This document shows, one piece after another, positions 7,041 through 62,688 of a stretch of DNA of 64,000 nt; the stretch's first letter is position 1, and each line of letters begins with the position of its first letter. The position numbers were made by a program, and so were the translations under genes. The notes beneath the pieces were generated by a model. The model ran no database searches, was not told the DNA's origin, and saw only the letters and a list, made by a program, of their open reading frames with translations. The stretch lies in the NCBI RefSeq assembly GCF_009914755.1, contig NC_060938.1, one strand, 5' to 3'. This DNA comes from the human T2T-CHM13v2.0 reference genome, Homo sapiens.

Positions 7041-9484
7041 AACAGCAAAAAAAAGAACAATCCATTGAAATGACAGTCAAGCTTTCTGAGGCTGCAGCAG
7101 CAGCGTTTAAGCCTTAAAGCCTAAAATCTCTAAAATTTATTTTGTCAAAATATTTTTCTGACAAATATGGGTAGGTACCCAAAAGAAACAAAAAGGCCCA
7201 AGGGGTCAGGGGATGGGTAGAACAGAATGGTTTTTAAGCCTGTAGCATACTGGTATCGGAACTAAAAATTAGACTTAGCCTTTCGCATTCTGATCAAATG
7301 TTCTTGCTATGAGAAAACACTGCCTCATAAAAGGTGCCCTTAAAATATTCAAAGAACTACTGCCACCTTCCTCTTTTCTTTGATAGGTTTTCACAGAAGC
7401 TTTTCTTGTGTTAACCGTTCATGGCCATGATAAACAATTAACTTTGTTCATGGTTTCTGTCTGAAAATTGAGAATAATATTCCTGTATTGGATGTTTCAC
7501 CAAATAAGTTTTTCACAGAAAATGAAGCTCAAAGATAAAGCAATCACACTGTACTCATTTCTGTGTACTAACACTGTATCTGGCATATATTTCAACAGCT
7601 CTCTATATCTGCCTGGACTTTCTTTTGGGAGAAATTCAAATGAATAAATATTTTCCAACAACCTCCTACATTTAAACCATAATGCTAAGAATTACAGTGG
7701 GTAAAGAGTGAATGACATGTGGTCTCTGACCTCCTACAGTCCCTTGTAGAAGCTTATAATCTAATTCTGAAACCATACTTATCCTCATCTGAAGTGAAGG
7801 CACCAGAGATATTCTTAAAAAGTAGCATAAGAAATCAGATATTTTCACTATACAGGGATTTGAGCAGTCACCAAGAAAAACTCCATAGCATTATGGATCT
7901 GTTAAGATTATAGATGTGAAAACCCTTTGAAAATTAAAAATACTCTGCCAAAAAAAAAGTCACAATGTGAATACATAAAGGTATAATGGCACTTGCATTG
8001 TGTTTTGGGAACAGGCAACCCTGGAAATGCTTTGATCAGCTCTGTCTTAACACCTACCATCGCATGGTAAATTCTGGGTGCAGCCTCTCAGTGCTGGAGT
8101 CCTTAGTCCTTGGGGAATGCCCATTTGCATGAAACTTGAAAAGATAGTTTTTTGATGATGACAGTAAGGGCGATAATACATTCAGCCTTTATTTAGGCAA
8201 CTGATTCTCATAGATTTCAAAAGTCACCATGTTCTGCAGCAACACCTTTTTGATAAACTACAATGGTTACAGTGTTCTACTTCTCATTTTTCTTCTTATC
8301 CTCAGAGAGAAAGCAAGATATCTCTTTGAGGAAATATCAACAGAGTTAACATAAGAAATATATAGTTTCTTCCTTATGAAATTAATTTGGCATTATTTTT
8401 GAGGTGTGGAGCATCTTGGCAACTGCTTTGGTTTAAAACTCTATGTGATTTGGGAAAAGCACGTTTCAGAATGTTTAATTCAGTGATACAAAAGGCACTA
8501 ATGAAATATGCATGTATGAATTTTATATCATATTAGTTCCCTCTTTCTTGAAATCTGAATAAAAGCCAAACATCTGGATTATGTTTGAAAAGCCTGAATT
8601 TCCAATTTTCAGAGAGATCCAGTCTATTTTGACATTGCACACTTAGCCTTCACATTTACAGTGTGCTATTAACATTACTTGCAATTGTAGAAAAAAAAAA
8701 GTCCAGATTTAAACAAACTTGGTGCCTCCTAATGCTAAAAATAAATCTATATTTGAAATGGCTGCTGCTGCTGCACAACCATACACATCCATAGTTCAGG
8801 CTTCTTCAGCATTTTCATTATAAATACTTGCACTGAACAGGCCTATAATTCAGCTATAAAGATATGTGGTAACCTATGATACATAAATTCTCCTTTGATT
8901 GTATATTAAAACAACAAACAGCAATTCATACATCACTTAGTTTGAGAAACTATTCACTGACTCAAGGCTTTCTGAGGGTCTCAAATATTCAAGATACTCT
9001 GTGGTCAACTAAAGAAGACATAGCCACCATCTTTTAAAGTTTATTCTTCAAATTTACAAGGCAAATAACATTTATGTTTTTATAGATATTTGGGTATATT
9101 TTAGCATCTAGACTAAAGGCAAGTGAATATTTATGGTTTTAGTAGCTTAGAGATGTAAATATGCATATCATTGCTTTATCTCATTTCATTATCATAGTTA
9201 ACTTAGGAGATAGATGGTCAATCAAGTTTTAGGCAAATAGTAGTCTGTCCACACAAGAGGTCATGGAAGATAGAAGAATGTGACTGTTGTGTTTGAAGTT
9301 TGCATAATGGTAATTCTTCAGTGGACTTTAATTTACTACACTTAACTTGTTATTGGATTTCTTATAGCACATATTAGGTAAGTGTTTTCTTTTGTTATGT
9401 TTGGAGAACAGCTAGAATCAAAGATTTTTCTTTTCCTTTTCATCTTATTTTGTGTTATTAGAAAATTCTAAATTAAGTAGTTGT

Positions 9485-13817: not shown

Positions 13818-16800
13818 AATTTTCCTGAATAGACAGGCTGACAACAATATTGTTCAGTGTGGGTTTTTATTTGGATTCTCTCCAAATGGTTCACATGCCT
13901 TCACAGTAACACATGCCTGCTTACGTTTTTTGCCTGAATTCTAAACTTTTCCCCTTTTACTAGCTTTCTATTTTTCTTTTAAGGTCTCAGTTATGTTTGT
14001 AAAACTAACCAGCTCTACCACAAAATTAGGATGTATCTTGCAGAGAGCATTCATTTTACTTTTTGCATATTTTTCCCGAGGTCATGTCAAGGTTAGTTTG
14101 AATTCCATCCTACATTAAGACTTCTTTCACAGCTATTTAGCTCGGCAGCCTACTCCCCGCTGGGGTCTGCCCCTTGGGCACGTCAAAGCTTCAGACCTGA
14201 CAAATCACACACAGATGAAGCTGTACAGTTTTTTAAACAGTTTCATCAGTAACTTTTTTTTCTTTTTCACTATCCTCCTTCATGTTGAGATTTTTTTTTC
14301 TCTGAATTACCATTTCAGGAATGTTGATTTCCGTTTGAGACAATTTGTTTTTACATCAGAGTTGCAGACTAGCAATATCATTTATTTTATAGTAAAGGAT
14401 ATTAATAGCCTTCTGTCACCAAGACTGCAGACCTACAGACCATTCCTGACTATTCTAACTGTAATTGCTTTATTAAAATCTATTCGTAACAGGAAGTGTA
14501 GTGTTGGAAATGTAGCTATATCATAGAGTCTACCAGAATCTGAAAAAAATATCAACCATAAAAATGCAGTTTATAAGGTATTATGAGTTGAGCCTGGAAA
14601 TGTTTCCTGAATGGTTAATAATATGCTCTTATCCGTATTTTAGCAAATTATGAAACTAAATGATGCAACTCCATTTCCTGTTTAATTGATGAAGTTAAAG
14701 TCCTTGGTTGCTAATGAGTGTATTAGCAAACAATGTCCCCTTTACAGGCTTAAGTAGATCAGGATTTTTAAAAAGCAGCTTACTATCCTTATTTTTATGG
14801 GATGAAAAATATTGACTGCCACAAAATTGCTAGACCAACTGAAGTCATGGTGTAATTATTTCTGTGCAGTCATTTTGGCAATTTCCAACGACCAGATTAA
14901 GGTTTTCTAGTTCCCACACTAGAAAATAGTTATTTTCTTTTACACACCATAGACTTTTCATTACATTTTCATTCAGGACAAACAACACCTGAAGATCTTT
15001 ACTGCAGACTAAGGAGAAAACTTAGAAGTGAGGGGAAAAAATAATATTTGAGTGATTCTTCTCTCCTCAGTCTTCTTTTACAGTTTGCTCAACATGAAAG
15101 TACCCAAATGAAGGGTTCTGTAAAAGGTTGCTTGGTTGAAACTAATTAAAGACAGGTCTAAATAGAAAAAGAAAAGAAAAAGGGATCAAAGGAATTACAT
15201 TAGGTGTCAGGACATCATTTGGGAGCGTTTTGTTTAATTTTTGTAATTTGATTCCAGGAAAACACTAAATTCTAAAAATGTCCATTTTTTGCCGTAATTT
15301 TATACTTGTGTTATTTTTGCAATAAGATACATGTCAACAGGCAAACATCTTGAAGAGATCATTTTGGTATTGGCGCATTAACACGTTATGGTGAAAAGAG
15401 AGGCTTGTGCTTTTCACGCAGTGCATTTCAGTCTTCAATTAATGTGAAAGCACTACAATGCCTATGCAACTTCTCTTGCCTAGTGGTGCACCATTTATCA
15501 TTGCAGTTTTACATTGACCTTGACACCCACTTCATTAGAATAAAGATTGTCTACCATTTAGGTTACATTGTTCCTCTGCACAGAGACCCCATGCAAATTT
15601 CTGTTCAGATAGAAGAGCTGCGGGGCTGTCAGAGGTCATCTGCATTAAATGATTGCAGCTATTTTCCAACTGCTTCTTTTCATTCTACTCAATTCAGGCT
15701 AGGAGGATCAATCAAGTCCTCTGCCTGAAACAGTGGGACTGCTGGGAATATGACTGTTTTTGGTAGTAGTGGATATGCCCTAAACAGTATTAAATATTTA
15801 ATATAAACTCATTAAAGGCCATACAAAGGCTTCAGAAGGATATCAAATTTATGGAAATATCTAAGGGGATAGAGAACCGTTTTAAAAAGTAAATAGAAAA
15901 ATAATAATCAATATTATAATTTTACAGGGTATGATCAAGATAGTTCTTAAACTTACTAAATTTTACCTATAGGAGACTTTTTTCTCACCCTTGACATGGG
16001 AAGGAAAGAAAGGAGACAGGTAGACTTGGCGTCCTTATGCAGTATTTTTTATGAAATTGACATGAAAGTTTTCAGTTATTTGTGTTTTTATTTTTGTTCT
16101 GTAACAGTGACTTCTAGTCTAGCTATATTTATTTTTAAAGGCTTAGATATTTGTTATTTAAAAGAAATGACTGGAGAAATAAGTTGCCAGGTCTCCTACT
16201 TAAGTTTTCTGAGTGGTATGATTGGAATTAAATTATTAATGGCAGATACTTTAAAAAAGATTGTTTTATGATCTTCTATTAGGGAATTTGCAATTCATTT
16301 TAATATTTGTAGTTTGATTTATATTAAAGATAATGCAATCTATGTCCAATTAACAGTACATGGCCAGTGTAATGTGATTTCCAGATCATGCAAATGGAAT
16401 AAGCTAGAAGAGGGGGAAAACTCAATTCTTAACCTCAGGTGTCATTTGCTGTGCGAGTTCTGGCAATTTTAAATGACATTGCACTTTTTAATTTTTCCAA
16501 AGGCTCAGCAGCAAATTTATCCCAATCAGGAAAACCTATTATTAATTTACAAGGACAATTGTAGGAGTCTTTATAATTTCTCTATGCAATTACTCACCAT
16601 AAATTCTACTGGTAAAATACAAGGAGTTTGCAAGAAATAACAACTATTATTTGTCTTGGGCTTGAACCCTTTTCTTCAGTTTTGAACATCTTCTTGAAGT
16701 GTTGGTGGTACTGACTCCATGTGCAGCATCATATGCGTTATGAGATGCTACACACAAGTCTTCTGAAAAGCGGGGCAGCACAAGAGCTGCTGCACAGGCA

Positions 16801-16862
16801 ACACTGGCCTCTGGCAGATTCCTGCACTCCGCATGGACAGCTGAGCTTGGACCCTGGACTTT

Positions 16863-16975
16863 TATATAAAAAGACTCTTTGTTCACCACTGAATGGCATT
16901 AGGCATGGACTTGCTGAGGGGCCACCATGAAGCCTCGAATGAGGAGGGCAAACACTAGCCAGAAAACACGTGAGA
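16863..16975 (+). promoter_or_regulatory. Candidate internal promoter / alternative first exon (TATA box, perfect Kozak ATG, splice donor)
   Basis: TATATAAAAA 16863-16872; GCCACCATGA 16921-16930; CAC|GTGAGA at 16970; E-box CAGCTG 16838-16843. Motif evidence only. Confidence 0.35.
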
Positions 16976-16996
16976 GTTGTAAATAGACACATCCCT

Positions 16997-16999
<3 letters not shown>

Positions 17000-17029
<30 letters not shown>
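17000..17029. repeat. Poly(T) tract
   Basis: 30 T. Confidence 0.95.
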
Positions 17030-17031
<2 letters not shown>

Positions 17032-17146
17032 AAAAATGCATATTTTCACACATTATTTTGCCAGTAGTTTGGTGTTTTGGTATGTTCCTAGCATTTGCTT
17101 TCTTACTGATAGACTAAGTAAGATATATTTTATTTTCTCAGTGTAT

Positions 17147-17147
<1 letters not shown>

Positions 17148-17184
<37 letters not shown>
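17148..17184. repeat. (TATC)n microsatellite
   Basis: Direct observation. Confidence 0.95.
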
Positions 17185-17983
17185 AATCGTATCTATCAGT
17201 CAATCATGCATATATGGGAAAGGGGATCTTGCTGGATAAACAGGTGTTTGTGGCATTATATTTGTACCAGGAAAGACATTCAATCCTGTCATTCTAATAA
17301 CTAGATCATTTTCCTTGTTTTAACTTTTCCTAATATAAAGTCAACTGAAGCTCAGTTAAAAGTAATATGGTGTAAGATGTAAATGCTCAAACCCTGATGA
17401 CACAGAATACAACAGCCCTATTCTAATAATCAAGAAATGTCTTTAGTTTAATTTGTGTGTTTCTCGCAGCCAAAGCTTCACTCTCTGTTCAGCAATGTCT
17501 GGTCTCTTTTCAGCATAACCAACAGAAGCACCATACAAAAGTCTTACAATGGATGTCTTAATCTCTCTGTGTGCTTTTAGAGCATTATTTTGAATTCCAT
17601 CATGCTGCCTTTTTTCTTTCCTCTTCTGAAGTTTTATTACAACAGCAGAATTCCCAGGGAGCTTTGGGGGCAAGGTTCACATAATATAGCCCTCAAGTTT
17701 TGCTTAGGTGGAAGCCATCCCCCAATCCTGGCCATCTTTTGATGATCCCTCTATTTCAAAAAGATTCACTCGGTAGAGTCTTATAGCATTAGCTGTATAT
17801 AGTTTATTTTTTATTTTTTTTATTTACCAGACAGTGAGCATCTACAACCCTTTCATGATGTTTTCTTTCTCTGACCTCACAGTGACAAGGCATCTTGTTC
17901 CTTAACATTGAGGGAGGCAGAAAAATGCTTGAGTTGCTCAATGTGTGCCTTCTATACCAGTTTCAAAATGGCTTATTCTTCTG

Positions 17984-17997
17984 GTTTCCATGGTGAC
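17984..17997. promoter_or_regulatory. RFX X-box motif
   Basis: GTTTCCATGGTGAC (reverse GTCACCATGGAAAC), a near-palindromic RFX consensus; YY1-like CAAAATGGC at 17964-17972. Confidence 0.5.
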
Positions 17998-20900
17998 AAT
18001 TAACACTGTTTCAAGGCATTGTTCCAGTCTCCATTTGGGCAGAATTTTCGGTGTGATTTCTAACAAAAAAAAAGGAGGGGGACTTCGGTGTGGCGGGGAA
18101 GCCTTTAGCGTAACTGTCAAAAAAGTTATCTCAATCAAGTCTTCATGCATTTCTAAGTATATTTATTTCAGAAATTCCTGTTTTTGCTGGCTTTGTTTTA
18201 TAATTCAGTTTTAGCATTTGTGCTAAAAGTAAGTACTCAATAAGAATTTTCTACAACTTCTTTAGTTCTTAGTTAAAATGGTGGGCTAGAGTTTGTAGTT
18301 ATTTTTAACTCCTTTTTTTAAAAGTTTTTCTTTATATTTATATACACAGGGATGGCATTTAGAATAGTACTGTCCTGTGTCTTTAATTTAGATCATTCAC
18401 ATATCTATTAGGAGGCTTCATTAGTCAAAATTGAATTGGCCAAGCAAATACACTTAATAATGTAAATATGGCCTTTCAAGAGAGTATATTTTATTTTTGA
18501 CTAGACAGAGAGGCCCACAGCAGGTGCTGTGGGGAAATTAAATACTGGATGCTTATTTACCTTAGCACTCAAGAAAAGCTTTCTGACTTTAACTTTGCTA
18601 ATCTCATTTTTGCCTATTGAAGAGTAGTCTATATCATAACATCCCCAGACTACAGGACACAATGGGGCAGCCTCTGCTCACTTACTGCTGTGGGTGGAAT
18701 GAATATGAAGATTAAATTATCTTCTCACCACAGGATAAAGTAGCCCCACTTGATAGGATGACCGAAAACTGATAGAGCTGGCAGTTGATTTTCTGAGTCT
18801 AATGCTTCTGAAAAGATGTTAAGAGACAGAAGAGCAAAAACATACTAGCATCAACAAAAATATAAGCTCCTGACATTATTACACATACAGCTTGAGCCCC
18901 TAAACATATTAGATTTAACCTTCAATATGCTTCAAAAATTAAAATAAATATTTTCACCTTAAATTATATAACATTTTAGTACCTTTCATCCATATATCAA
19001 TACATCTAACAATTAACTAGATACTCTTAGCTTTTGTATTAGAGTTTGAAGGCATTGTCCATCAATCACATCTTAAATCAAGCTGTTTAGACAGTCGGCT
19101 ATATGGTGACAAAGACTGAGAGCACACATAAAGACAAGTTTCTTTTAAAGGTAATAACCTTTTATAATAGCTATTGCAGTGACTACTTATACGCATTTAA
19201 CAGAGAAGATTGGTTTATTACATCTAAAATTAAATTAATTGCTTTTTATATTTTTATTTGTGTAAGACTATCATTTTTATGGGACACATCTAAGCTGTTT
19301 CCTTTCTTGACTGATGTGCTGTGTGAGAGCTGTTTAAAGTTGGGGTGAAGAGGGGGGGATGAGCTTGTCACAAGTTAAAGGGATAACTGGTAGAGGCCAT
19401 TCCCAAGTGGCACAGCCAGAGGACTCTTTCTGTCAATGAGTAATACCATGTGGCATAAGTAAAATATTTGAATAAGATTTTCCTGCCTGCCTGAAATACT
19501 GGTTCCCCCAATATTATGTGGAAATCTTACCAAATTAATTATGTAAATCTTTGTCAGCTATATCATTTTAGATGGGAACCTGATTACATAAAGCAGATTG
19601 TCCTCTCCTCCAATCATCGCTCTGACAAATAAAACACTATCTAGGTTTCTAGAATGCTCCTGAATATTGAATCCAGAAAATTCAAGTGGACAGTGTGTTT
19701 CCTAAGTGCTGGAGTAACATGGTCCTGGTAATTGCCTTCCATTAGAAAACGCAATCAGAATTTCTCCTGTATCACAGGCCAGATTCTAAAAGCGCTCTAA
19801 AGCAACCCTTGATTTTCTCCACTATGCATATTCATGTAATTTTGGATACTCTGACACCCTGATCAACATTCATTAATAATATGAAATGCTTTAAATCACC
19901 TCATTTAAAACATTTTGTTCTGTGATCCACAAATGACTAACATTTGGAGAAGTTTACATAATACAAGTGATGTGCATGTTTAGTGTAAATGAAAGATTAA
20001 AATATGAAGCTAAAAGTATGCAAACATATGCACGCAAATGCTGAAGATCTATTAACCGAAACAGTGATTTCATACCTTCTTTTCCTTTAATCTGCTTCCA
20101 ATTGTATTTTTGTTTGGGATCTTATATAATATCATGTTTTCAAGGTGAGTGAAATCACCCAAGTGCTTGGGGACATTTGAACTTATTGATTTATTTATTT
20201 GCCCAGCGAAAAGTTTTTCTCATTAACTCTGATAAAGGTGCTTATCTTAGGGCACCGTTGGTCATGTAGGGCAAAAGAACAAAATACTACCATGGAACTC
20301 AGTGACCTAAATTTGGTGCCTGGAAGAAAAAAGTTTTAAAATTGCTATTATATCTTGGAAATGTGCTGAAAATGTAAAATATGTTTAATATTTTAACCAG
20401 AATCTAGATTTTCTACTCAGAGGAGTTTTTACATGTACATTTATAAAGTACAGTCATAGTCATTTATGGCTATCCATAATATAGGACTAACTATGGAGTT
20501 ATCCAAATAGAGTTATTTGAAGAGAATCACCATAGTAACTGTCACATTAAATAGCACTTACATTATCTCCAGCAAAACATCTTTTAGGAGAGACTCTCTT
20601 GGCAGTTTGTTAGAATATAATACATACTGGGGGAGAGGGTTCTGTAGTCAACTATGATTTGGGGGATATTTTACAGTAATCAATAAAGAAGCATAGATTT
20701 GTAACTACTCCTAAAATGTTGGCTTTCCTTTTTCTCTATATATGTACCTTTTCTCCAAGCCCACACAGAGTTTTTAAGGAAAAGAAAATGAAAACAAAAT
20801 GTTAACTGAGAATTCAGATAACTTACATAATCTTTATGAATAATTTTTTTTCTTTCACTTTGAAACTGGTCCTTTAGGGGAAGAGATGAGAGGTGGACAG

Positions 20901-21047
20901 CACTCTGGAACCAAATAATGGCCAAAATTAACTGTAATATTAAACCCCCCTAGACCAGTTACTATCCTATTTAGAATATTTTAAAGATCAAATATGTGTA
21001 TAAACTTGAGTTTAAGAAGTAAATCTTAGTCAACTAAATGTAATAAC

Positions 21048-21066
21048 TGTGTGTGTGTGTGTGTGT
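21048..21066. repeat. (TG)n tract ~180 nt upstream of the exon acceptor
   Basis: Direct observation. Confidence 0.9.
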
Positions 21067-21243
21067 ATATAATATATTCAGCAATATTCTTCATCTACTC
21101 AAAGTACTTAGGTTTAGCCTCCCCATAAATTTTATTGGGAACAAAAACTTTTAATGCTCGTAAGCATCACAAATTCTGTGTTCAATGATTTTCTAAGAAC
21201 ACCTCTCTCCCTAATGATATCTCTTTTTCTCTTTTCATTTTAG

Positions 21244-21390
21244 CGATACAGTGTGGAAATGTCCATCAGACACCTGAAAAAGACGGAGCTGCTTAGTAAG
21301 GTTGAAGCTTTGAAGAAAGGTGGCGTTTTACTACCAAATGATCTCCTTGAAAAAGTGGATTCAATTAATGAAAAATGGGAACTGCTTGGG
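21244..21390 (+). CDS. AKAP6: AKAP6 coding exon, 147 nt, phase 0/0 (RYSVEMSIRHLKKTELLSKVEALKKGGVLLPNDLLEKVDSINEKWELLG); C-terminal part of spectrin repeat 2
   Basis: Strong acceptor (ctctttttctcttttcattttag|CGA), 49 open codons, spectrin helix-C motif INEKWELL, weak donor GGG|GTATTT at 21391. Confidence 0.93.
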
Positions 21391-21471
21391 GTATTTGCAT
21401 TTTTATTACTGTTTGTAGGTTATGTGTACATTTTTTGCGTAGTGAAGTACTCTGTCCGATTTCTAATTTGA
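21391..21471 (+). CDS. AKAP6: Putative alternative terminal extension (intron read-through) encoding a transmembrane tail anchor VFAFLLLFVGYVYIFCVVKYSVRFLI*
   Basis: In-frame continuation past the weak donor: 18 uncharged, mostly hydrophobic residues, then KYSVRFLI and TGA at 21469-21471 (ORF track 21253..21471). Confidence 0.6.
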   Translation, partial: VFAFLLLFVGYVYIFCVVKYSVRFLI

Positions 21472-24447
21472 GGCACAAATATCTCTCTCTTTCAATTCAC
21501 TACCTACGTTTCAAACAAGCTATTCATGCTATTATGGGAAAGACACTGCTTTTCCTCTTCTGTTGATTTTTTTTTTTTCTGAGCTTGTCCCCTCTCAGAT
21601 TTTAATAATTTTGGTTCTTTAATACATGAAAAAGTAAGTAAAATATGCCATGTATTATGGGTATGCACCAAGTCAACTATAATACAGTATATCTGATATA
21701 TACTGACTGTCATGCTTGAATGAATGTTAATAGAATTTATTCTGAAGGTACATGTGAGAGACATCTACTGTTTAACTATTTACTGTACCCTTAAGATGAA
21801 AAGTGGAGTTGTCACTACAGCTTTCAAGTCACACTAAAGCCACCAAAACAAAGATGCAAATTTGACCCAAATCTGAATTGCAGAATTGAATCAGCCTGTG
21901 TTTTGTGCCTCAATTTCCAGCTCACTTTTAACAAAAGCCAAAAAAAAAAAAAGTTTCATGTAATTCATTTCACGCAATGATGGGCTGGGTCTCAGCCAAA
22001 GACTGAGATGCAAGAATCTGGCAAAAAGGCAATATAGAGATTCTGTTACCCAGAGACCAGGATGGCACTGTGCAGGAGACAGTACTGTCCTTTTGTTGGA
22101 AGACAGCTGAGAGAAAAGTTAAACTGTATTTTTTCATCAGCTTCTCTCCTAAATTGCCTTCACTTCAAATCAAGGGTAAGCTATATTTGTCAATTACCTA
22201 AATAATTAATTATAACAGCCAAGTATGGACGATGTCAGTTATGGAGCATAATTTTGCATGCCTTCCATTTTTCTACCTTTTAAAAAAAATTTTAGATAAA
22301 TAATACTCCAAAAATATTTTGAATAAAAAGCTCTTCATGTACCTTGATGATTTGGAGGAATGCCAGTATTCTGTTTATGCCATGCCTAATCTAGGAGATT
22401 AAAAAACTGCAGGTTTAAGTCCTTGTTTCTCATTTAAATTCACTACACTCTGCAGTTGTGCAAAGTAACTTAAAATGTTAAAAGTTTTTCATCTAACATA
22501 TTGTTGCCTTTTAATAATAATTAATGGCTTTCACTTTATAATACGGTGACTTAAATCAAAACCTGCCGTATTCTACAGCATTCATTGATCTCAAACAGGA
22601 GAAATGTGGTTAGTGTATGACATTTTAAAAGGTTGTTTACTACATAGATAAGAATGGCAACCTTATGTGCTTGATAAAGTAGCGATAAGTCTGTTTACAT
22701 TGCATTTTAATATATCCATTGGTAATTTGATAAATAACAATAATATTTTTAGAAAATTGTTTAAGTTATGTCACATGTATTGCTTCCTCAACAGAATTTT
22801 AAGTCAACATTATTTTGAAAAAAGAAATAATATTTAGCTATCCTTTATGAATCAGAGACTTTAAAAATAGTTGCCATTTTGACAAAAACATCATTCAAAT
22901 ACAACATGCAGGTTTGCAGTGAGAGAGTAGGGTGAGGGAAGATTTTTTTAAATCCTGTACCACACTAACACCACCAGGCATACTGTTTTAATTGGCATGA
23001 TTACATTTTAATTGGCATGAAAAAAATTAAAGACAAGGATTTTAACTTCTAACAATAGTAAAATAGAGGTATATGGTTTTTAATATTACTTTCATCTAAG
23101 GTGAACAGTGTGGAATGGAAATACATTAGAATGAAATGTCAGTGGTGCGTACAGTTTAATCTGTGAAATTGTGTCCCCTGTGCTGCATATTACTCTGTCT
23201 CAATTGCATATTAAACAACCCTATCAAGGCAGGCATTGGCATCTGCTGTGCTGACACAAATTGTGAATTAAATGAAATTGATGTCCTCTGTCGTATATTT
23301 ATGAAGACGGACCATTCTCTGAAGTATTCTGTTTATGAAGAATTTATGATTGCAAACTGTTCCAGAACAAAAAAGTGGCAATAAATTCTTTTTTGTGACC
23401 CTACCCTCCAAGGGCATTGATTTCACCTCCTGCTGCTACTTTTGTTACAGCGTAAAAACAATAGCTAAATCTGGATTCCACTGAGGGTCTTCAAATTATC
23501 AGTATTTTCACCATGAAAATACAAGGGTGTTGCCAAGAAAGGCTATTTTTCTGCTACAGTCTCCTAAAGATACTATTTACAGAACACTACACACCAGATG
23601 AATGTTTGTTGACTTAATTTTATTTATGTTTTAAAGCTTATTTTTGTAGGTTTAATGCATCATTATAGATTTAAATCCTATTGATTGGGACTGCTTTCCA
23701 CCAAAAAGAAAAAAAGAAAACAGCCCTCCCCGACAACACTCTCCTGCCATAGTGGTTAATTTAAGTAGGCTTCTAGTGTAGTGAATTGGGGATTATTTTA
23801 ACACATATTCGGTATTAGAAAGTCCAGCATCCAGAAATGCAAAATGGAAAGAATTGTGGGATTGAACAATTTCCAAGTCAGGTAAAATCAACAACATCAC
23901 CAAGGAGGCTTCCTTTTCTTAAAACCCTTTAGTTATATGGTTTCGGAAATATGTCACAAAACAAAAAATGGAATTTAATTCTCCGTGTTTGATCTACTCT
24001 TGGCCTCTTTAGTATATTTATTAAACTTACATCTCCTGGACATTTTATGTGGAGAGTTTTTTACTATAAACTCCTATCATGATAATTCAAATGAATTTTT
24101 CTCTGTGACCAAAAAATTCAAATGAATTTTTATCTTGCGAACTATGGGCTAAATCTCCTTTCTATTAAAGGAAAGTAAGTGAATGAGGTCTTCTTAAGTA
24201 TCCGCTGGTACTCAGAACAACTTGCACTGAGAATTCGAATACTAAATGGAACAATGACCTAATCTGAACTGAATGTCAGTAGTGAGGTGGCAGGTATAGA
24301 TGGACTCTTCCAGGTGGCTCTCGTTACCAACAAAACTGTGGTGTGTTTTTGGTACCTAAGTTAATCTATGTTTTTGTTTTTTTGTTGTTCGTGGGGTTTT
24401 TTTTTGTTTGTTTGTTTTATTTTTTGTTTTTTAATCTGATGCATTAG

Positions 24448-24672
24448 AAAACCCTAGGAGAGAAGATCCAGGACACAATGGCAGGGCACAGTGGGTCGAG
24501 TCCACGTGACCTGCTCTCTCCTGAAAGTGGAAGCCTGGTAAGGCAGCTGGAGGTCAGGATCAAAGAACTGAAAGGATGGCTAAGAGATACAGAGCTTTTC
24601 ATCTTCAATTCCTGTCTGAGACAAGAAAAGGAAGGAACAATGAATACTGAGAAACAACTGCAATACTTTAAG
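24448..24672 (+). CDS. AKAP6: AKAP6 coding exon, 225 nt, phase 0/0 (KTLGEKIQDTMAGHSGSSPRDLLSPESGSLVRQLEVRIKELKGWLRDTELFIFNSCLRQEKEGTMNTEKQLQYFK); linker and first helix of spectrin repeat 3
   Basis: Long T/G-rich tract then gcattag|AAA; donor AAG|GTAATA at 24673; spectrin helix-A motif IKELKGWLRDTE. Confidence 0.93.
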
Positions 24673-62472: not shown

Positions 62473-62688
62473 TCCCTCTGTCGTGAAATCAAGCAACGAC
62501 GTCGAGGAGTTGCCTCCATTCTGCGACTATGCCAGCATCTTTTGGATGACCGGGAGACTTGCAATCTGAATGCAGACCACCAGCCCATGCAGCTGATCAT
62601 TGTAAATCTTGAAAGAAGGTGGGAAGCCATTGTCATGCAAGCCGTCCAGTGGCAAACACGTCTACAAAAGAAGATGGGAAAGGAATCT
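62473..62688 (+). CDS. AKAP6: AKAP6 coding exon, 216 nt, phase 0/0 (SLCREIKQRRRGVASILRLCQHLLDDRETCNLNADHQPMQLIIVNLERRWEAIVMQAVQWQTRLQKKMGKES); helices B/C of spectrin repeat 3
   Basis: Acceptor tttctctctatgttgcag|TCC; donor TCT|GTGAGT at 62689; spectrin helix-C motif NLERRWEAI; locally CpG-retaining. Confidence 0.94.

What the first reader, a model, noticed from the sequence alone, without database searches (positions are those of the whole stretch)
21244..21471. Hidden tail-anchor: intron read-through converts AKAP6 into a membrane-inserted, nesprin-like spectrin protein
Seen: the exon ends in a poor donor (GGG|GTATTT, lacking +4A and +5G). The frame stays open for 26 more codons: VFAFLLLFVGYVYIFCVV (18 uncharged residues, preceded by WELLG), then KYSVRFLI-stop. 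This is the classic tail-anchored layout of a TM helix plus a short basic C-terminal tail. The read-throughs of the other two exons have no comparable segment. Established: mAKAP has no TM domain and reaches the nuclear envelope through spectrin repeat 3 binding nesprin-1alpha; its PKA-RII helix lies far C-terminal. Inference: skipping this donor gives an isoform that keeps the N-terminal scaffold and SR1-2, loses SR3 and the PKA-binding C-terminal half, and gains its own anchor (ER/SR/outer nuclear membrane, or mitochondria given the shortish TM and K/R tail). This would be a splice-versus-polyadenylation switch of localisation. A truncated transcript may already be annotated, but I know of no function described for this anchor.
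Basis: partly seen in the sequence, partly recalled or inferred. Interest (0 to 1): 0.88.

Follow-up and report, generated by a model that had tools for sequence, protein, structure and literature searches.

The report
Known short AKAP6 isoform, hydrophobic intron tail
Reading past a very weak splice site in the human AKAP6 gene gives a short protein ending in a greasy, membrane-anchor-like tail; that protein is already in the public databases as "isoform 2", but nothing I could test shows the tail is more than a by-product of T-rich intron sequence.

Summary
AKAP6 coding exon 9 (21244-21390, codons 1001-1049, phase 0) ends in GGG|GTATTT, one of the weakest donors in my sample (3 of 227 real chr14 donors score lower). 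The frame runs 26 more codons to TGA at 21469-21471. With the exon's last LLG this makes 21 uncharged residues (mean Kyte-Doolittle 2.70), then KYSVRFLI.

The product is not hidden. A 1075-aa human protein named "A-kinase anchoring protein 6" (NCBI) and "Isoform 2 of A-kinase anchor protein 6" (UniRef) is exactly residues 1-1049 plus this tail.

Nothing I could test supports a selected membrane anchor.
- All 23 RefSeq models splice the exon normally.
- Of 31 partial AKAP6 proteins holding exon 9, 30 continue into exon 10. Only the human record has the tail.
- The intron start is 50% T. Tails this hydrophobic follow 0.4-0.5% of pseudo-donors here and 1 of 60 real long-intron donors.
- No poly(A) hexamer lies within 850 nt. 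A genomic A13 run 470 nt downstream could explain a cDNA by internal priming.

Conservation and expression could not be tested. Most likely this is a non-selected by-product.

The parts
21244..21390 (+). AKAP6 coding exon 9 of 12 (codons 1001-1049, phase 0 at both ends); it encodes most of the last two modelled helices before the cut
   Evidence: Annotation and phase arithmetic. Translation. Residues 1001-1049 of P0070. Helices 992-1025 and 1032-1073 in the model, with pLDDT 80-89 over 991-1050.
21388..21396 (+). Very weak 5' splice site GGG|GTATTT, used in every RefSeq model
   Evidence: PWM score 2.3 bits, 1 of 167 real donors lower. 3 of 227 lower. All 23 models join 21390 to 24448.
21391..21468 (+). 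26 in-frame intron codons, 50% T; they are the C-terminal 26 residues of database protein P0070 ('isoform 2')
21382..21444 (+). 21 uncharged residues (LLG from the exon plus 18 from the intron), mean Kyte-Doolittle 2.70: the transmembrane-like segment
21469..21471 (+). TGA stop of the read-through frame. It lies upstream of the later AKAP6 exon junctions, so a merely intron-retaining mRNA would be expected to be an NMD target
   Evidence: Exon list. The NMD rule is established knowledge, not tested here.
21415..21420 (+). In-frame GT 24 nt into the intron (TTT|GTAGGT), scoring slightly above the annotated donor. No model uses it
   Evidence: PWM 2.81 against 2.30 and 3.16 against 2.51.
21939..21951 (+). 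Genomic A13 run 470 nt after the stop, with no AWTAAA on the + strand between 21472 and 22321: a possible oligo(dT) internal-priming site on unspliced RNA
22322..22327 (+). First AATAAA on the + strand after the stop (851 nt downstream), with a G/T-rich stretch after it: the nearest candidate intronic poly(A) signal by sequence only
   Evidence: There are 8 AWTAAA in the 3,057-nt intron, against about 7.4 expected from the window-wide density of 308 per 128,000 strand-bases.
24448..24672 (+). Next coding exon (codons 1050-1124), which follows exon 9 in 30 of the 31 exon-9-holding proteins. It is preceded by a long T-rich polypyrimidine tract (about 24371-24447)

Best explanation
The 26 codons are ordinary intron sequence, not a selected coding extension. 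Exon 9 of AKAP6 has an exceptionally weak 5' splice site followed by a T-rich stretch. Some transcripts stay unspliced here or end in the intron, and at least one was captured and recorded as the 1075-aa 'isoform 2'. The tail is hydrophobic because T-rich sequence read in any open frame gives F/L/I/V-rich peptides.

If such an RNA is translated, the product would be a truncated scaffold holding residues 1-1049, that is SR1 and most of SR2. It would lack the nesprin-binding SR3 and the C-terminal half. Its hydrophobic C-terminus would be handled by the BAG6/TRC triage that deals with intron-encoded tails: mostly degradation, possibly some insertion into the ER membrane. A transcript that merely retains the intron would be expected to be removed by NMD.

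Shown: the sequence, the weak donor, the database record, the T-richness and the chance rates. Inferred: the origin of the record, NMD, and the BAG6 fate. A compatible but unproven addition is that the U-rich start of the intron helps U1 recruitment to the weak donor through TIA1/TIAL1-type binding.
For: - All 23 RefSeq models, Gnomon models included, splice 21390 to 24448, and none ends in the intron.
- Only the human record has the tail. Of 101 truncated or partial AKAP6 cluster representatives of 421-1497 aa, 31 hold exon 9 and 30 continue into exon 10. The junction EKWELLG|KTL is kept in mammals, birds, reptiles and a caecilian.
- Composition explains the tail. The 78 nt are 50% T. Of 20,000 shuffles of the 81 nt, 18.5% give an 18-mer mean of at least 1.6 and 0.8% reach 2.74. 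Of 5,476 window positions with T of at least 0.47 over 80 nt, 26.5% reach 1.6 and 2.6% reach 2.74. Frame +2 is open even longer, at least 40 codons.
- Rates of 0.3-0.5% per donor, and 1 of 60 real long-intron donors, predict many such tails genome-wide.
- No AWTAAA lies within 850 nt of the stop, hexamer density in the intron is at chance, and an A13 run sits 470 nt downstream.
- Kesner et al., bioRxiv 10.1101/2022.07.20.500724 (abstract and passages): U-rich noncoding sequence, introns included, typically yields hydrophobic C-terminal tails that BAG6 captures for degradation or membrane targeting.
- PMC2964331 (passages): TIA proteins bind U-rich sequence just downstream of 5' splice sites and recruit U1, equally at constitutive exons.
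- The model shows no linker. Helix 1032-1073 runs from the exon straight into the tail, and pLDDT falls from 87 to 69, 53 and 43.
Against: - A public protein record with exactly this product exists, representing a cluster of 44 member sequences and 4 contigs. So the RNA is probably real at some level, and I could not see whether non-human members of the cluster carry the tail.
- The tail is in the top 0.3-0.5% of read-throughs for hydrophobicity, and the donor is in the bottom 1-2% for strength. The coincidence of the two is what a regulated splice-versus-termination switch would look like.
- Even given the local composition, only 0.8% of shuffles match the hydrophobicity.
- The segment is long and hydrophobic enough to be an authentic transmembrane helix, so by the Kesner model it could be inserted rather than degraded.
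- My test of the TIA-type idea found nothing: donor score against T content at +7 to +36 gave Spearman rho -0.04, p = 0.6, n = 167.
- Conservation of the intron frame was not testable.
Confidence: 0.72

Rival explanations
1. A regulated choice between splicing at the weak donor and ending the transcript in the intron makes a tail-anchored AKAP6 isoform. It inserts into ER/SR or outer nuclear membrane on its own, without nesprin-1alpha, and carries the N-terminal scaffold and SR1 there.
For: - The exact product is a recorded human isoform.
- It is the only transmembrane-like segment in the protein, lies 8 residues from the C-terminus, has 2 basic residues after it, and there is no N-terminal signal-like segment.
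- The donor is very weak.
- AATAAA at 22322 has a G/T-rich downstream stretch.
- SR1 alone binds the PACT domains of Pcnt and AKAP9, and a farnesyl-anchored SR1 drags PACT to the plasma membrane (PMC7725499, passages). A membrane-anchored 1-1049 fragment would therefore plausibly be active.
- An old discrepancy between SR and perinuclear staining of AKAP6 has been attributed to unspecified variants (PMC6642276, passages).
Against: - It is in no RefSeq model.
- No other representative carries the tail, 0 of 30.
- Composition gives such tails by chance.
- There is no nearby poly(A) hexamer, and an internal-priming site is present.
- There is no linker between the last bundle helix and the membrane segment, and SR2 is probably cut short.
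- The field counts two isoforms, alpha and beta (PMC12863296, passages).
- Paper searches for AKAP6 with tail-anchored, intronic polyadenylation or intron retention, and for the isoform accession, found nothing on it.
Confidence: 0.08
2. The 'isoform 2' record is purely a cloning artefact. Oligo(dT) primed on the genomic A13 run at 21939-21951 of nuclear, not yet spliced pre-mRNA, so no cytoplasmic mRNA or protein of this kind exists at all.
For: - The A13 run lies 470 nt after the stop, with no AWTAAA between the stop and 22321.
- AKAP6 is a 633-kb gene with long-lived nascent RNA; the gene span comes and the rest is inference.
- The form is absent from the 23 RefSeq models.
Against: I could not see the cDNA record or its 3' end. 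A full-length clone would also need all eight upstream coding introns removed while this 3-kb intron stayed, which fits slow splicing at a very weak donor but is not proof of an artefact. The cluster has 44 members.
Confidence: 0.3
3. Not exclusive of the best explanation. The T-rich first 40 or so bases of the intron are a selected intronic splicing enhancer (TIA1/TIAL1-type) that rescues the weak donor, and the open hydrophobic frame is its side effect.
For: - T fraction at +7 to +36 is 0.53. Only 2 of 167 donors, the candidate included, reach that.
- T falls from 0.46 and 0.44 in the first 200 nt to 0.18-0.37 further in.
- The mechanism is published (PMC2964331, passages).
Against: - There was no correlation between donor weakness and downstream T content in my 167 donors (rho -0.04, p = 0.6).
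- 4.9% of all 80-nt windows in this window reach 50% T.
- No binding data were available.
Confidence: 0.3

Closest known systems
AKAP6 'isoform 2' (1075 aa) in NCBI and UniRef (P0070)
   Same: Identical: residues 1-1049 of AKAP6 plus the 26 intron-encoded residues.
   Different: Nothing differs at sequence level. No function, localisation or membrane anchor for it was found in the literature I could search. Supplements were closed and subscription papers are not held.
Hydrophobic C-terminal tails from translated noncoding or intron sequence, triaged by BAG6 (Kesner et al., 10.1101/2022.07.20.500724)
   Same: An intron-encoded, U-rich-derived hydrophobic C-terminus added to a normal N-terminal protein, the class the paper describes for intron retention and intronic polyadenylation.
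   Different: This tail is at the extreme of the distribution (18-mer mean 2.74, 21 uncharged residues). It could therefore pass as an authentic transmembrane domain rather than a defective one. Its fate is untested.
Tail-anchored membrane proteins, for example SLMAP3 at the nuclear envelope MTOC (PMC11461071)
   Same: A single hydrophobic segment at the extreme C-terminus, no signal peptide and a large N-terminal part. SLMAP3 works in the same nuclear envelope/MTOC setting as AKAP6.
   Different: There is no evidence of expression, insertion or conservation. No linker separates the folded domain from the segment.
Nesprins / KASH proteins (nesprin-1alpha)
   Same: Spectrin repeats followed by a C-terminal membrane segment.
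   Different: There is no KASH domain. Pfam reported none, only 8 residues follow the segment and there is no PPP motif (the PPPX feature of KASH is recalled). It could not bind SUN proteins in the way KASH does.
Splice-versus-polyadenylation switches that change membrane anchoring (immunoglobulin mu secreted/membrane forms; recalled, no call)
   Same: Competition between a 5' splice site and termination in the downstream intron would decide the C-terminus.
   Different: There the poly(A) site and both products are demonstrated. Here no intronic poly(A) site use is shown, and hexamer density is at chance.

Membership tests
Tail-anchored (TA) membrane proteins | A single transmembrane segment close to the C-terminus (about 30 residues or fewer after it) | tested here: met
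   19-mer Kyte-Doolittle maximum 2.58 at 1049-1067, next best 1.33. 8 residues follow.
Tail-anchored (TA) membrane proteins | No N-terminal signal sequence or other membrane segment | tested here: met
   Maximum 19-mer mean in residues 1-60 is 0.28, and no other segment reaches 1.6. This is hydropathy only; no dedicated predictor was available.
Tail-anchored (TA) membrane proteins | The protein is made and inserted post-translationally (TRC40/GET, EMC) and resists carbonate extraction | not testable with these tools
   There is only a database record and no expression or fractionation data.
Tail-anchored (TA) membrane proteins | The anchor is conserved in orthologues | tested here: inconclusive
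   0 of 30 other exon-9-holding representatives have a tail. These are mostly partial gene models, the members of the P0070 cluster could not be listed, and no vertebrate genomes were available.
KASH / nesprin family | A C-terminal KASH domain: a membrane segment plus a luminal peptide of about 30 residues ending in PPPX (recalled) | tested here: not met
   Pfam on P0070 reported only Spectrin and a weak IPK match at E up to 0.1. The tail after the segment is 8 residues with no PPP.
Spectrin-repeat proteins | A match to the Pfam Spectrin repeat PF00435 above the curated cut-off | tested here: met
   P0070 residues 781-882, 33.0 bits against a cut-off of 29.9. Only this one repeat is detected; SR2 and SR3 are too divergent for Pfam.
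Intronic-polyadenylation (composite terminal exon) isoforms | A used poly(A) site in the intron downstream of the skipped donor | tested here: inconclusive
   8 AWTAAA on the + strand in 3,057 nt, against about 7.4 expected. The first is at 22322, and there is an A13 run at 21939-21951. Usage cannot be seen with these tools.
U12-type introns (considered as a reason for the odd donor) | A 5' splice site /RTATCCTT (recalled consensus) | tested here: not met
   The donor is /GTATTTGC, with TT where CC is required. The intron ends in a long polypyrimidine tract typical of U2-type introns.

The most novel reading that the evidence does not exclude
The recorded but unstudied 1075-aa AKAP6 isoform is a genuine tail-anchored protein. 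When U1 fails at the very weak exon-9 donor, the transcript ends in the intron. The product inserts into ER/SR or outer nuclear membrane independently of nesprin-1alpha. There it places SR1, and with it Pcnt/AKAP9 and the N-terminal signalling partners, without PKA. This would explain the disputed sarcoplasmic-reticulum staining of AKAP6.
Probability: 0.07. Interest if true: 0.65.

Novelty: already known. Interest (0 to 1): 0.27.

Why it matters
If the tail really anchored a truncated mAKAP in membranes, AKAP6 would have a second, nesprin-independent way to reach membranes. It would be a PKA-less scaffold able to recruit pericentrin and AKAP9 through SR1. It would also offer a concrete candidate for the old SR-versus-perinuclear staining discrepancy (PMC6642276; PMC7725499).

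As the evidence stands, the case is mainly a caution. A database "isoform 2" with a near-perfect tail-anchor layout can arise from a weak donor followed by T-rich intron sequence. My chance rates predict roughly 19 such layouts on chr14 alone, if its 5,219 MANE coding donors had this window's composition.

Tried and rejected
- A 75-aa query (exon 9 plus tail) against named proteins found nothing. The tool only sees proteins of 41-131 aa for that query, so the blank was uninformative. The later search with a 940-aa partial orthologue found the isoform.
- Pfam on the three exon translations and on the 75-aa peptide gave nothing useful: one sub-threshold RGS_DHEX match on exon 11.
- Pfam on fish, bird and beaver partial proteins gave only one listed spectrin stretch each, or none for the beaver protein. 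I could not place SR2 and SR3 by Pfam and used published rat construct borders instead.
- Rfam over the whole window at gathering threshold gave 0 matches.
- Bases 21391-21700 are unique in the genome, with only the self-match. None of the masked-repeat intervals of 100 bases or more listed for the window overlaps 21391-21471. The tail is therefore not a repeat fragment.
- ORFs on both strands of 21000-22000 are short and unremarkable.
- I rejected a U12-type intron as the reason for the odd donor (see membership test).
- My test of the TIA-type idea found no correlation between donor weakness and downstream T-richness in 167 donors.
- Paper searches gave the following. AKAP6 with intronic polyadenylation: 0 papers. 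AKAP6 with tail-anchored: 2 papers. One concerns SLMAP3 (passages read); the other I saw only in the listing. AKAP6 with intron retention: 1 paper, irrelevant passage. AKAP6 with alternative polyadenylation: 3 papers held, 2 listed; one passage read concerns 3'-UTR variants. The isoform accession, recalled from memory: 0 papers. AKAP6 or mAKAP isoform, transcript and splice phrases: 6 papers, 5 listed; passages of 2 read. A last search for tail-anchored isoforms made by alternative splicing returned only unrelated reviews.
- I did not ask for supplementary files, which are closed. Poly(A)-site atlases, long-read isoform tables and proteomics tables that could bear on this isoform would be in such files.
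- The structure model is low in confidence overall (mean pLDDT 46.2, pTM 0.33). I used it only for the 960-1050 region (pLDDT 77-89) and did not run fold searches.
- The count by script is 23.
Full report
WHAT IS IN THE SEQUENCE

The finding's coordinates and letters are right. Window 21244-21390 is chr14:26929244-26929390, coding exon 9 of 12 of AKAP6 (NM_004274.5). Exactly 3000 coding bases precede it, so it begins and ends in phase 0 and encodes residues 1001-1049. The exon ends ...TGG GAA CTG CTT GGG and the intron begins GTATTT. Read on in frame, the intron gives VFAFLLLFVGYVYIFCVVKYSVRFLI and then TGA at 21469-21471.

Together with the exon's last three residues (LLG) there are 21 consecutive uncharged residues with a mean Kyte-Doolittle value of 2.70. 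Eight residues follow, with two basic and no acidic side chains. The read-throughs of the other two exons of the window (56 and 35 codons) have no hydrophobic segment; their best 18-mer means are 1.14 and -0.33. None of the other ten AKAP6 donors gives one either.

THE DONOR IS VERY WEAK

I built a 9-position log-odds matrix from real GT donors of MANE transcripts on chr14, leaving the candidate out.
- With 167 donors the candidate scores 2.3 bits and one donor scores lower.
- With 227 donors, three score lower.
- About a fifth of all GT dinucleotides in the window (646 of 3369) score as well or better.

Even so, all 23 RefSeq AKAP6 transcript models join 21390 to 24448, and none ends inside the intron. 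It is not a U12-type site: it reads /GTATTT, not /RTATCC (consensus recalled), and the intron ends in a long polypyrimidine tract. An in-frame GT 24 nt downstream (21415, TTT|GTAGGT) scores slightly higher than the annotated donor. No model uses it.

THE PRODUCT IS ALREADY ON RECORD

A search with the 75-aa peptide was blank, because that tool only sees proteins of similar length.
- A search with the 590-aa exon 3 returned 69 partial AKAP6 proteins. Four held exon 9, and all four continued into exon 10.
- A search with one of those, a 940-aa beaver partial protein, returned 97 proteins. Among them is P0070, named by NCBI 'A-kinase anchoring protein 6 [Homo sapiens]' and by UniRef 'Isoform 2 of A-kinase anchor protein 6'. 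It is 1075 aa long and stands for a cluster of 44 member sequences and 4 contigs.
- Its sequence is residues 1-1049 followed by exactly the 26 intron-encoded residues.

Pooling both searches gives 101 representatives. Of these, 31 hold an exon-9 homologue, 30 run on into exon 10, and only P0070 has the tail. The junction EKWELLG|KTL is kept in mammals, birds, squamates, an alligator and a caecilian. I could not list the 44 members of the P0070 cluster, so I do not know whether any non-human member has a similar tail.

HOW SPECIAL IS THE TAIL?

Per donor it is unusual. Across a genome scan it is expected.
- Pseudo-donors in the window: of 62,209 non-exon + strand start positions, 22% stay open for at least 26 codons. 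6.8% give an 18-mer mean of at least 1.6, and 0.36% reach the observed 2.74. For the 3,266 positions that begin with GT the figures are 8.5% and 0.46%.
- Adding the tail-anchor layout (at most 30 residues after the segment) leaves 12 of 3,266, or 0.37%. That corresponds to about 19 cases among the 5,219 MANE coding donors of chr14 if they had this composition.
- Real donors from gene-dense loci: 161 donors of 13 genes gave 2 at 1.6 or more and none at 2.0 or more. Those loci are G+C-rich.
- Real donors before long introns: a random 60 of the 261 donors before introns of at least 20 kb gave 3 at 1.6 or more and 1 at 2.74 or more, in RGS6. Six of these had no stop within the 324 nt fetched and were scored on the partial peptide.

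The cause is composition.
- The 78 nt are 50% T, against 35% for the intron and the window.
- 4.9% of the window's 80-nt windows reach 50% T.
- Shuffling the 81 nt gives an 18-mer mean of at least 1.6 in 18.5% of 20,000 trials and at least 2.74 in 0.8%.
- Frame +2 of the same stretch is open for at least 40 codons, so openness is not special to the coding frame.

This is the general behaviour described by Kesner et al. (bioRxiv 10.1101/2022.07.20.500724; abstract and passages). U-rich noncoding sequence, introns included, yields hydrophobic C-terminal tails. The BAG6 membrane-protein triage complex captures them, mostly for proteasomal degradation and sometimes for membrane targeting.

COULD THE TRANSCRIPT END IN THE INTRON?

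- The 3,057-nt intron has 8 AATAAA/ATTAAA hexamers on the + strand. The window-wide density is 308 on both strands of 64 kb, which predicts about 7.4.
- The first hexamer is AATAAA at 22322, 851 nt after the stop. The stretch after it is G/T-rich.
- Closer in, at 21939-21951, there is a genomic run of 13 A with no hexamer before it. Oligo(dT) could prime on that site in unspliced RNA.

I could not see the cDNA behind the database record, so I cannot say which of the two produced it. An mRNA that only retains this intron would carry the stop upstream of the later exon junctions. By the established rule it should be an NMD target; this is inference.

WHAT THE PROTEIN WOULD BE

Rat construct borders are SR1 585-915, SR2 915-1065 and SR3 1065-1286. 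SR3 binds nesprin-1alpha, and SR1 binds the PACT domains of pericentrin and AKAP9. A farnesyl-anchored SR1 is enough to pull PACT to the plasma membrane (PMC7725499, passages). mAKAP reaches the nuclear envelope through nesprin-1alpha (PMC7920539, passages).

The 1075-aa form therefore keeps SR1, loses SR3 and the whole C-terminal half, and ends about 16 residues before the SR2/SR3 construct border. The position of the PKA-binding helix far C-terminal is recalled, not checked. Pfam sees only one spectrin repeat (781-882, 33 bits, cut-off 29.9) and no KASH domain.

An AlphaFold2 model built on a 27-sequence alignment is poor overall (mean pLDDT 46.2). It is confident for 961-1050 (block means 77-89). 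It shows helices 959-987, 992-1025 and 1032-1073, and the last helix runs from the exon straight into the tail as confidence falls to 69, 53 and 43. The hydrophobic segment would thus follow the last bundle helix with no linker, and that helix is probably cut short. This is not what one expects of an evolved anchor, although it does not exclude insertion.

By hydropathy the formal tail-anchor layout is met: one segment, at the extreme C-terminus, with no N-terminal signal-like stretch. 'Nesprin-like' holds only loosely, as spectrin repeats plus a C-terminal hydrophobic segment. The defining KASH peptide is absent.

LITERATURE

The field counts two AKAP6 isoforms, alpha and beta (PMC12863296, passages). 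One paper attributes conflicting SR and perinuclear staining to unspecified 'transcriptional or splicing variations' (PMC6642276, passages). The following searches found no description of this form or of a membrane anchor in AKAP6:
- AKAP6 with intronic polyadenylation (0 papers);
- AKAP6 with tail-anchored (2 papers, about SLMAP3 and a review seen in the listing only);
- AKAP6 with intron retention (1 paper, irrelevant);
- AKAP6 with alternative polyadenylation;
- the recalled isoform accession (0 papers);
- isoform, transcript and splice phrases.

Supplements were closed and subscription papers are not in the library, so this absence is limited.

THE U-RICH STRETCH

TIA1 and TIAL1 bind U-rich sequence just downstream of 5' splice sites and recruit U1 snRNP, as often at constitutive as at alternative exons (PMC2964331, passages). 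The candidate has T = 0.53 at +7 to +36, a value reached by only 2 of 167 donors including itself. T content falls further into the intron. However, donor weakness and downstream T content are uncorrelated in my sample (rho -0.04, p = 0.6, n = 167). This remains a plausible but untested reason for the composition.

VERDICT

That it is a selected, membrane-inserted, nesprin-like isoform has no support from anything I could test, and several results weigh against it: it is absent from RefSeq models and from other species' records, composition explains the tail, no nearby poly(A) signal exists, an internal-priming site is present, and there is no linker.

The most likely account (about 0.7) is a non-selected by-product of a very weak donor followed by T-rich intron sequence. 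The tail-anchor reading keeps a probability of about 0.07. The decisive data were outside these tools: mammalian alignments of the 81 bases, the 3' end of the underlying cDNA, 3'-end and long-read data, and a tail-fusion experiment.

Other checks were negative: no Rfam family in the window, no repeat copy elsewhere in the genome, and no notable ORF on either strand nearby.

Noticed in passing
window 7094-7104, 14995-15002, 21241-21243: RefSeq model XM_054377087.1 begins with two micro-exons of 11 and 8 nt. It joins 15002 to 21241, 3 nt upstream of the normal acceptor. That junction is flanked by TG..TT instead of GT..AG. It looks like a model or lift-over artefact, and it explains why the merged exon in the given annotation starts at 21241.
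   Followed up: partly
window 21415-21420: An in-frame GT 24 nt inside the intron (TTT|GTAGGT) scores slightly higher than the annotated donor in my matrix. Using it would insert eight hydrophobic residues at the SR2/SR3 border. No model uses it.
   Followed up: partly
window 21939-21951: A genomic run of 13 A lies 470 nt after the read-through stop with no poly(A) hexamer before it. It is a likely internal-priming site that could generate apparent intron-terminated cDNAs.
   Followed up: partly
window about 24371-24447: An unusually long T-rich polypyrimidine tract of about 75 nt precedes the next exon. The weak donor is thus paired with a strong-looking acceptor.
   Followed up: no
proteins P0030, P0032, P0059 (fish AKAP6 gene models): 3 of the other 100 truncated AKAP6 representatives also end in hydrophobic stretches, with 18-mer means of 1.8-2.4 in the last 40 residues. 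One is a C/V repeat that looks microsatellite-derived. This shows how easily truncated gene models acquire greasy C-termini.
   Followed up: no
L-loci (RGS6 and MARK3 donors on chr14): The read-through of one RGS6 donor gives a 76-residue tail with an F-rich segment (18-mer mean 2.86). One MARK3 donor gives a 19-residue tail with mean 1.73. These are chance analogues of the AKAP6 case among only 60 sampled donors.
   Followed up: no
window 62473-62688 (AKAP6 coding exon 11): A sub-threshold Pfam match to the RGS_DHEX domain (E 0.051, 14.2 bits against a cut-off of 22.5). It is probably noise.
   Followed up: no
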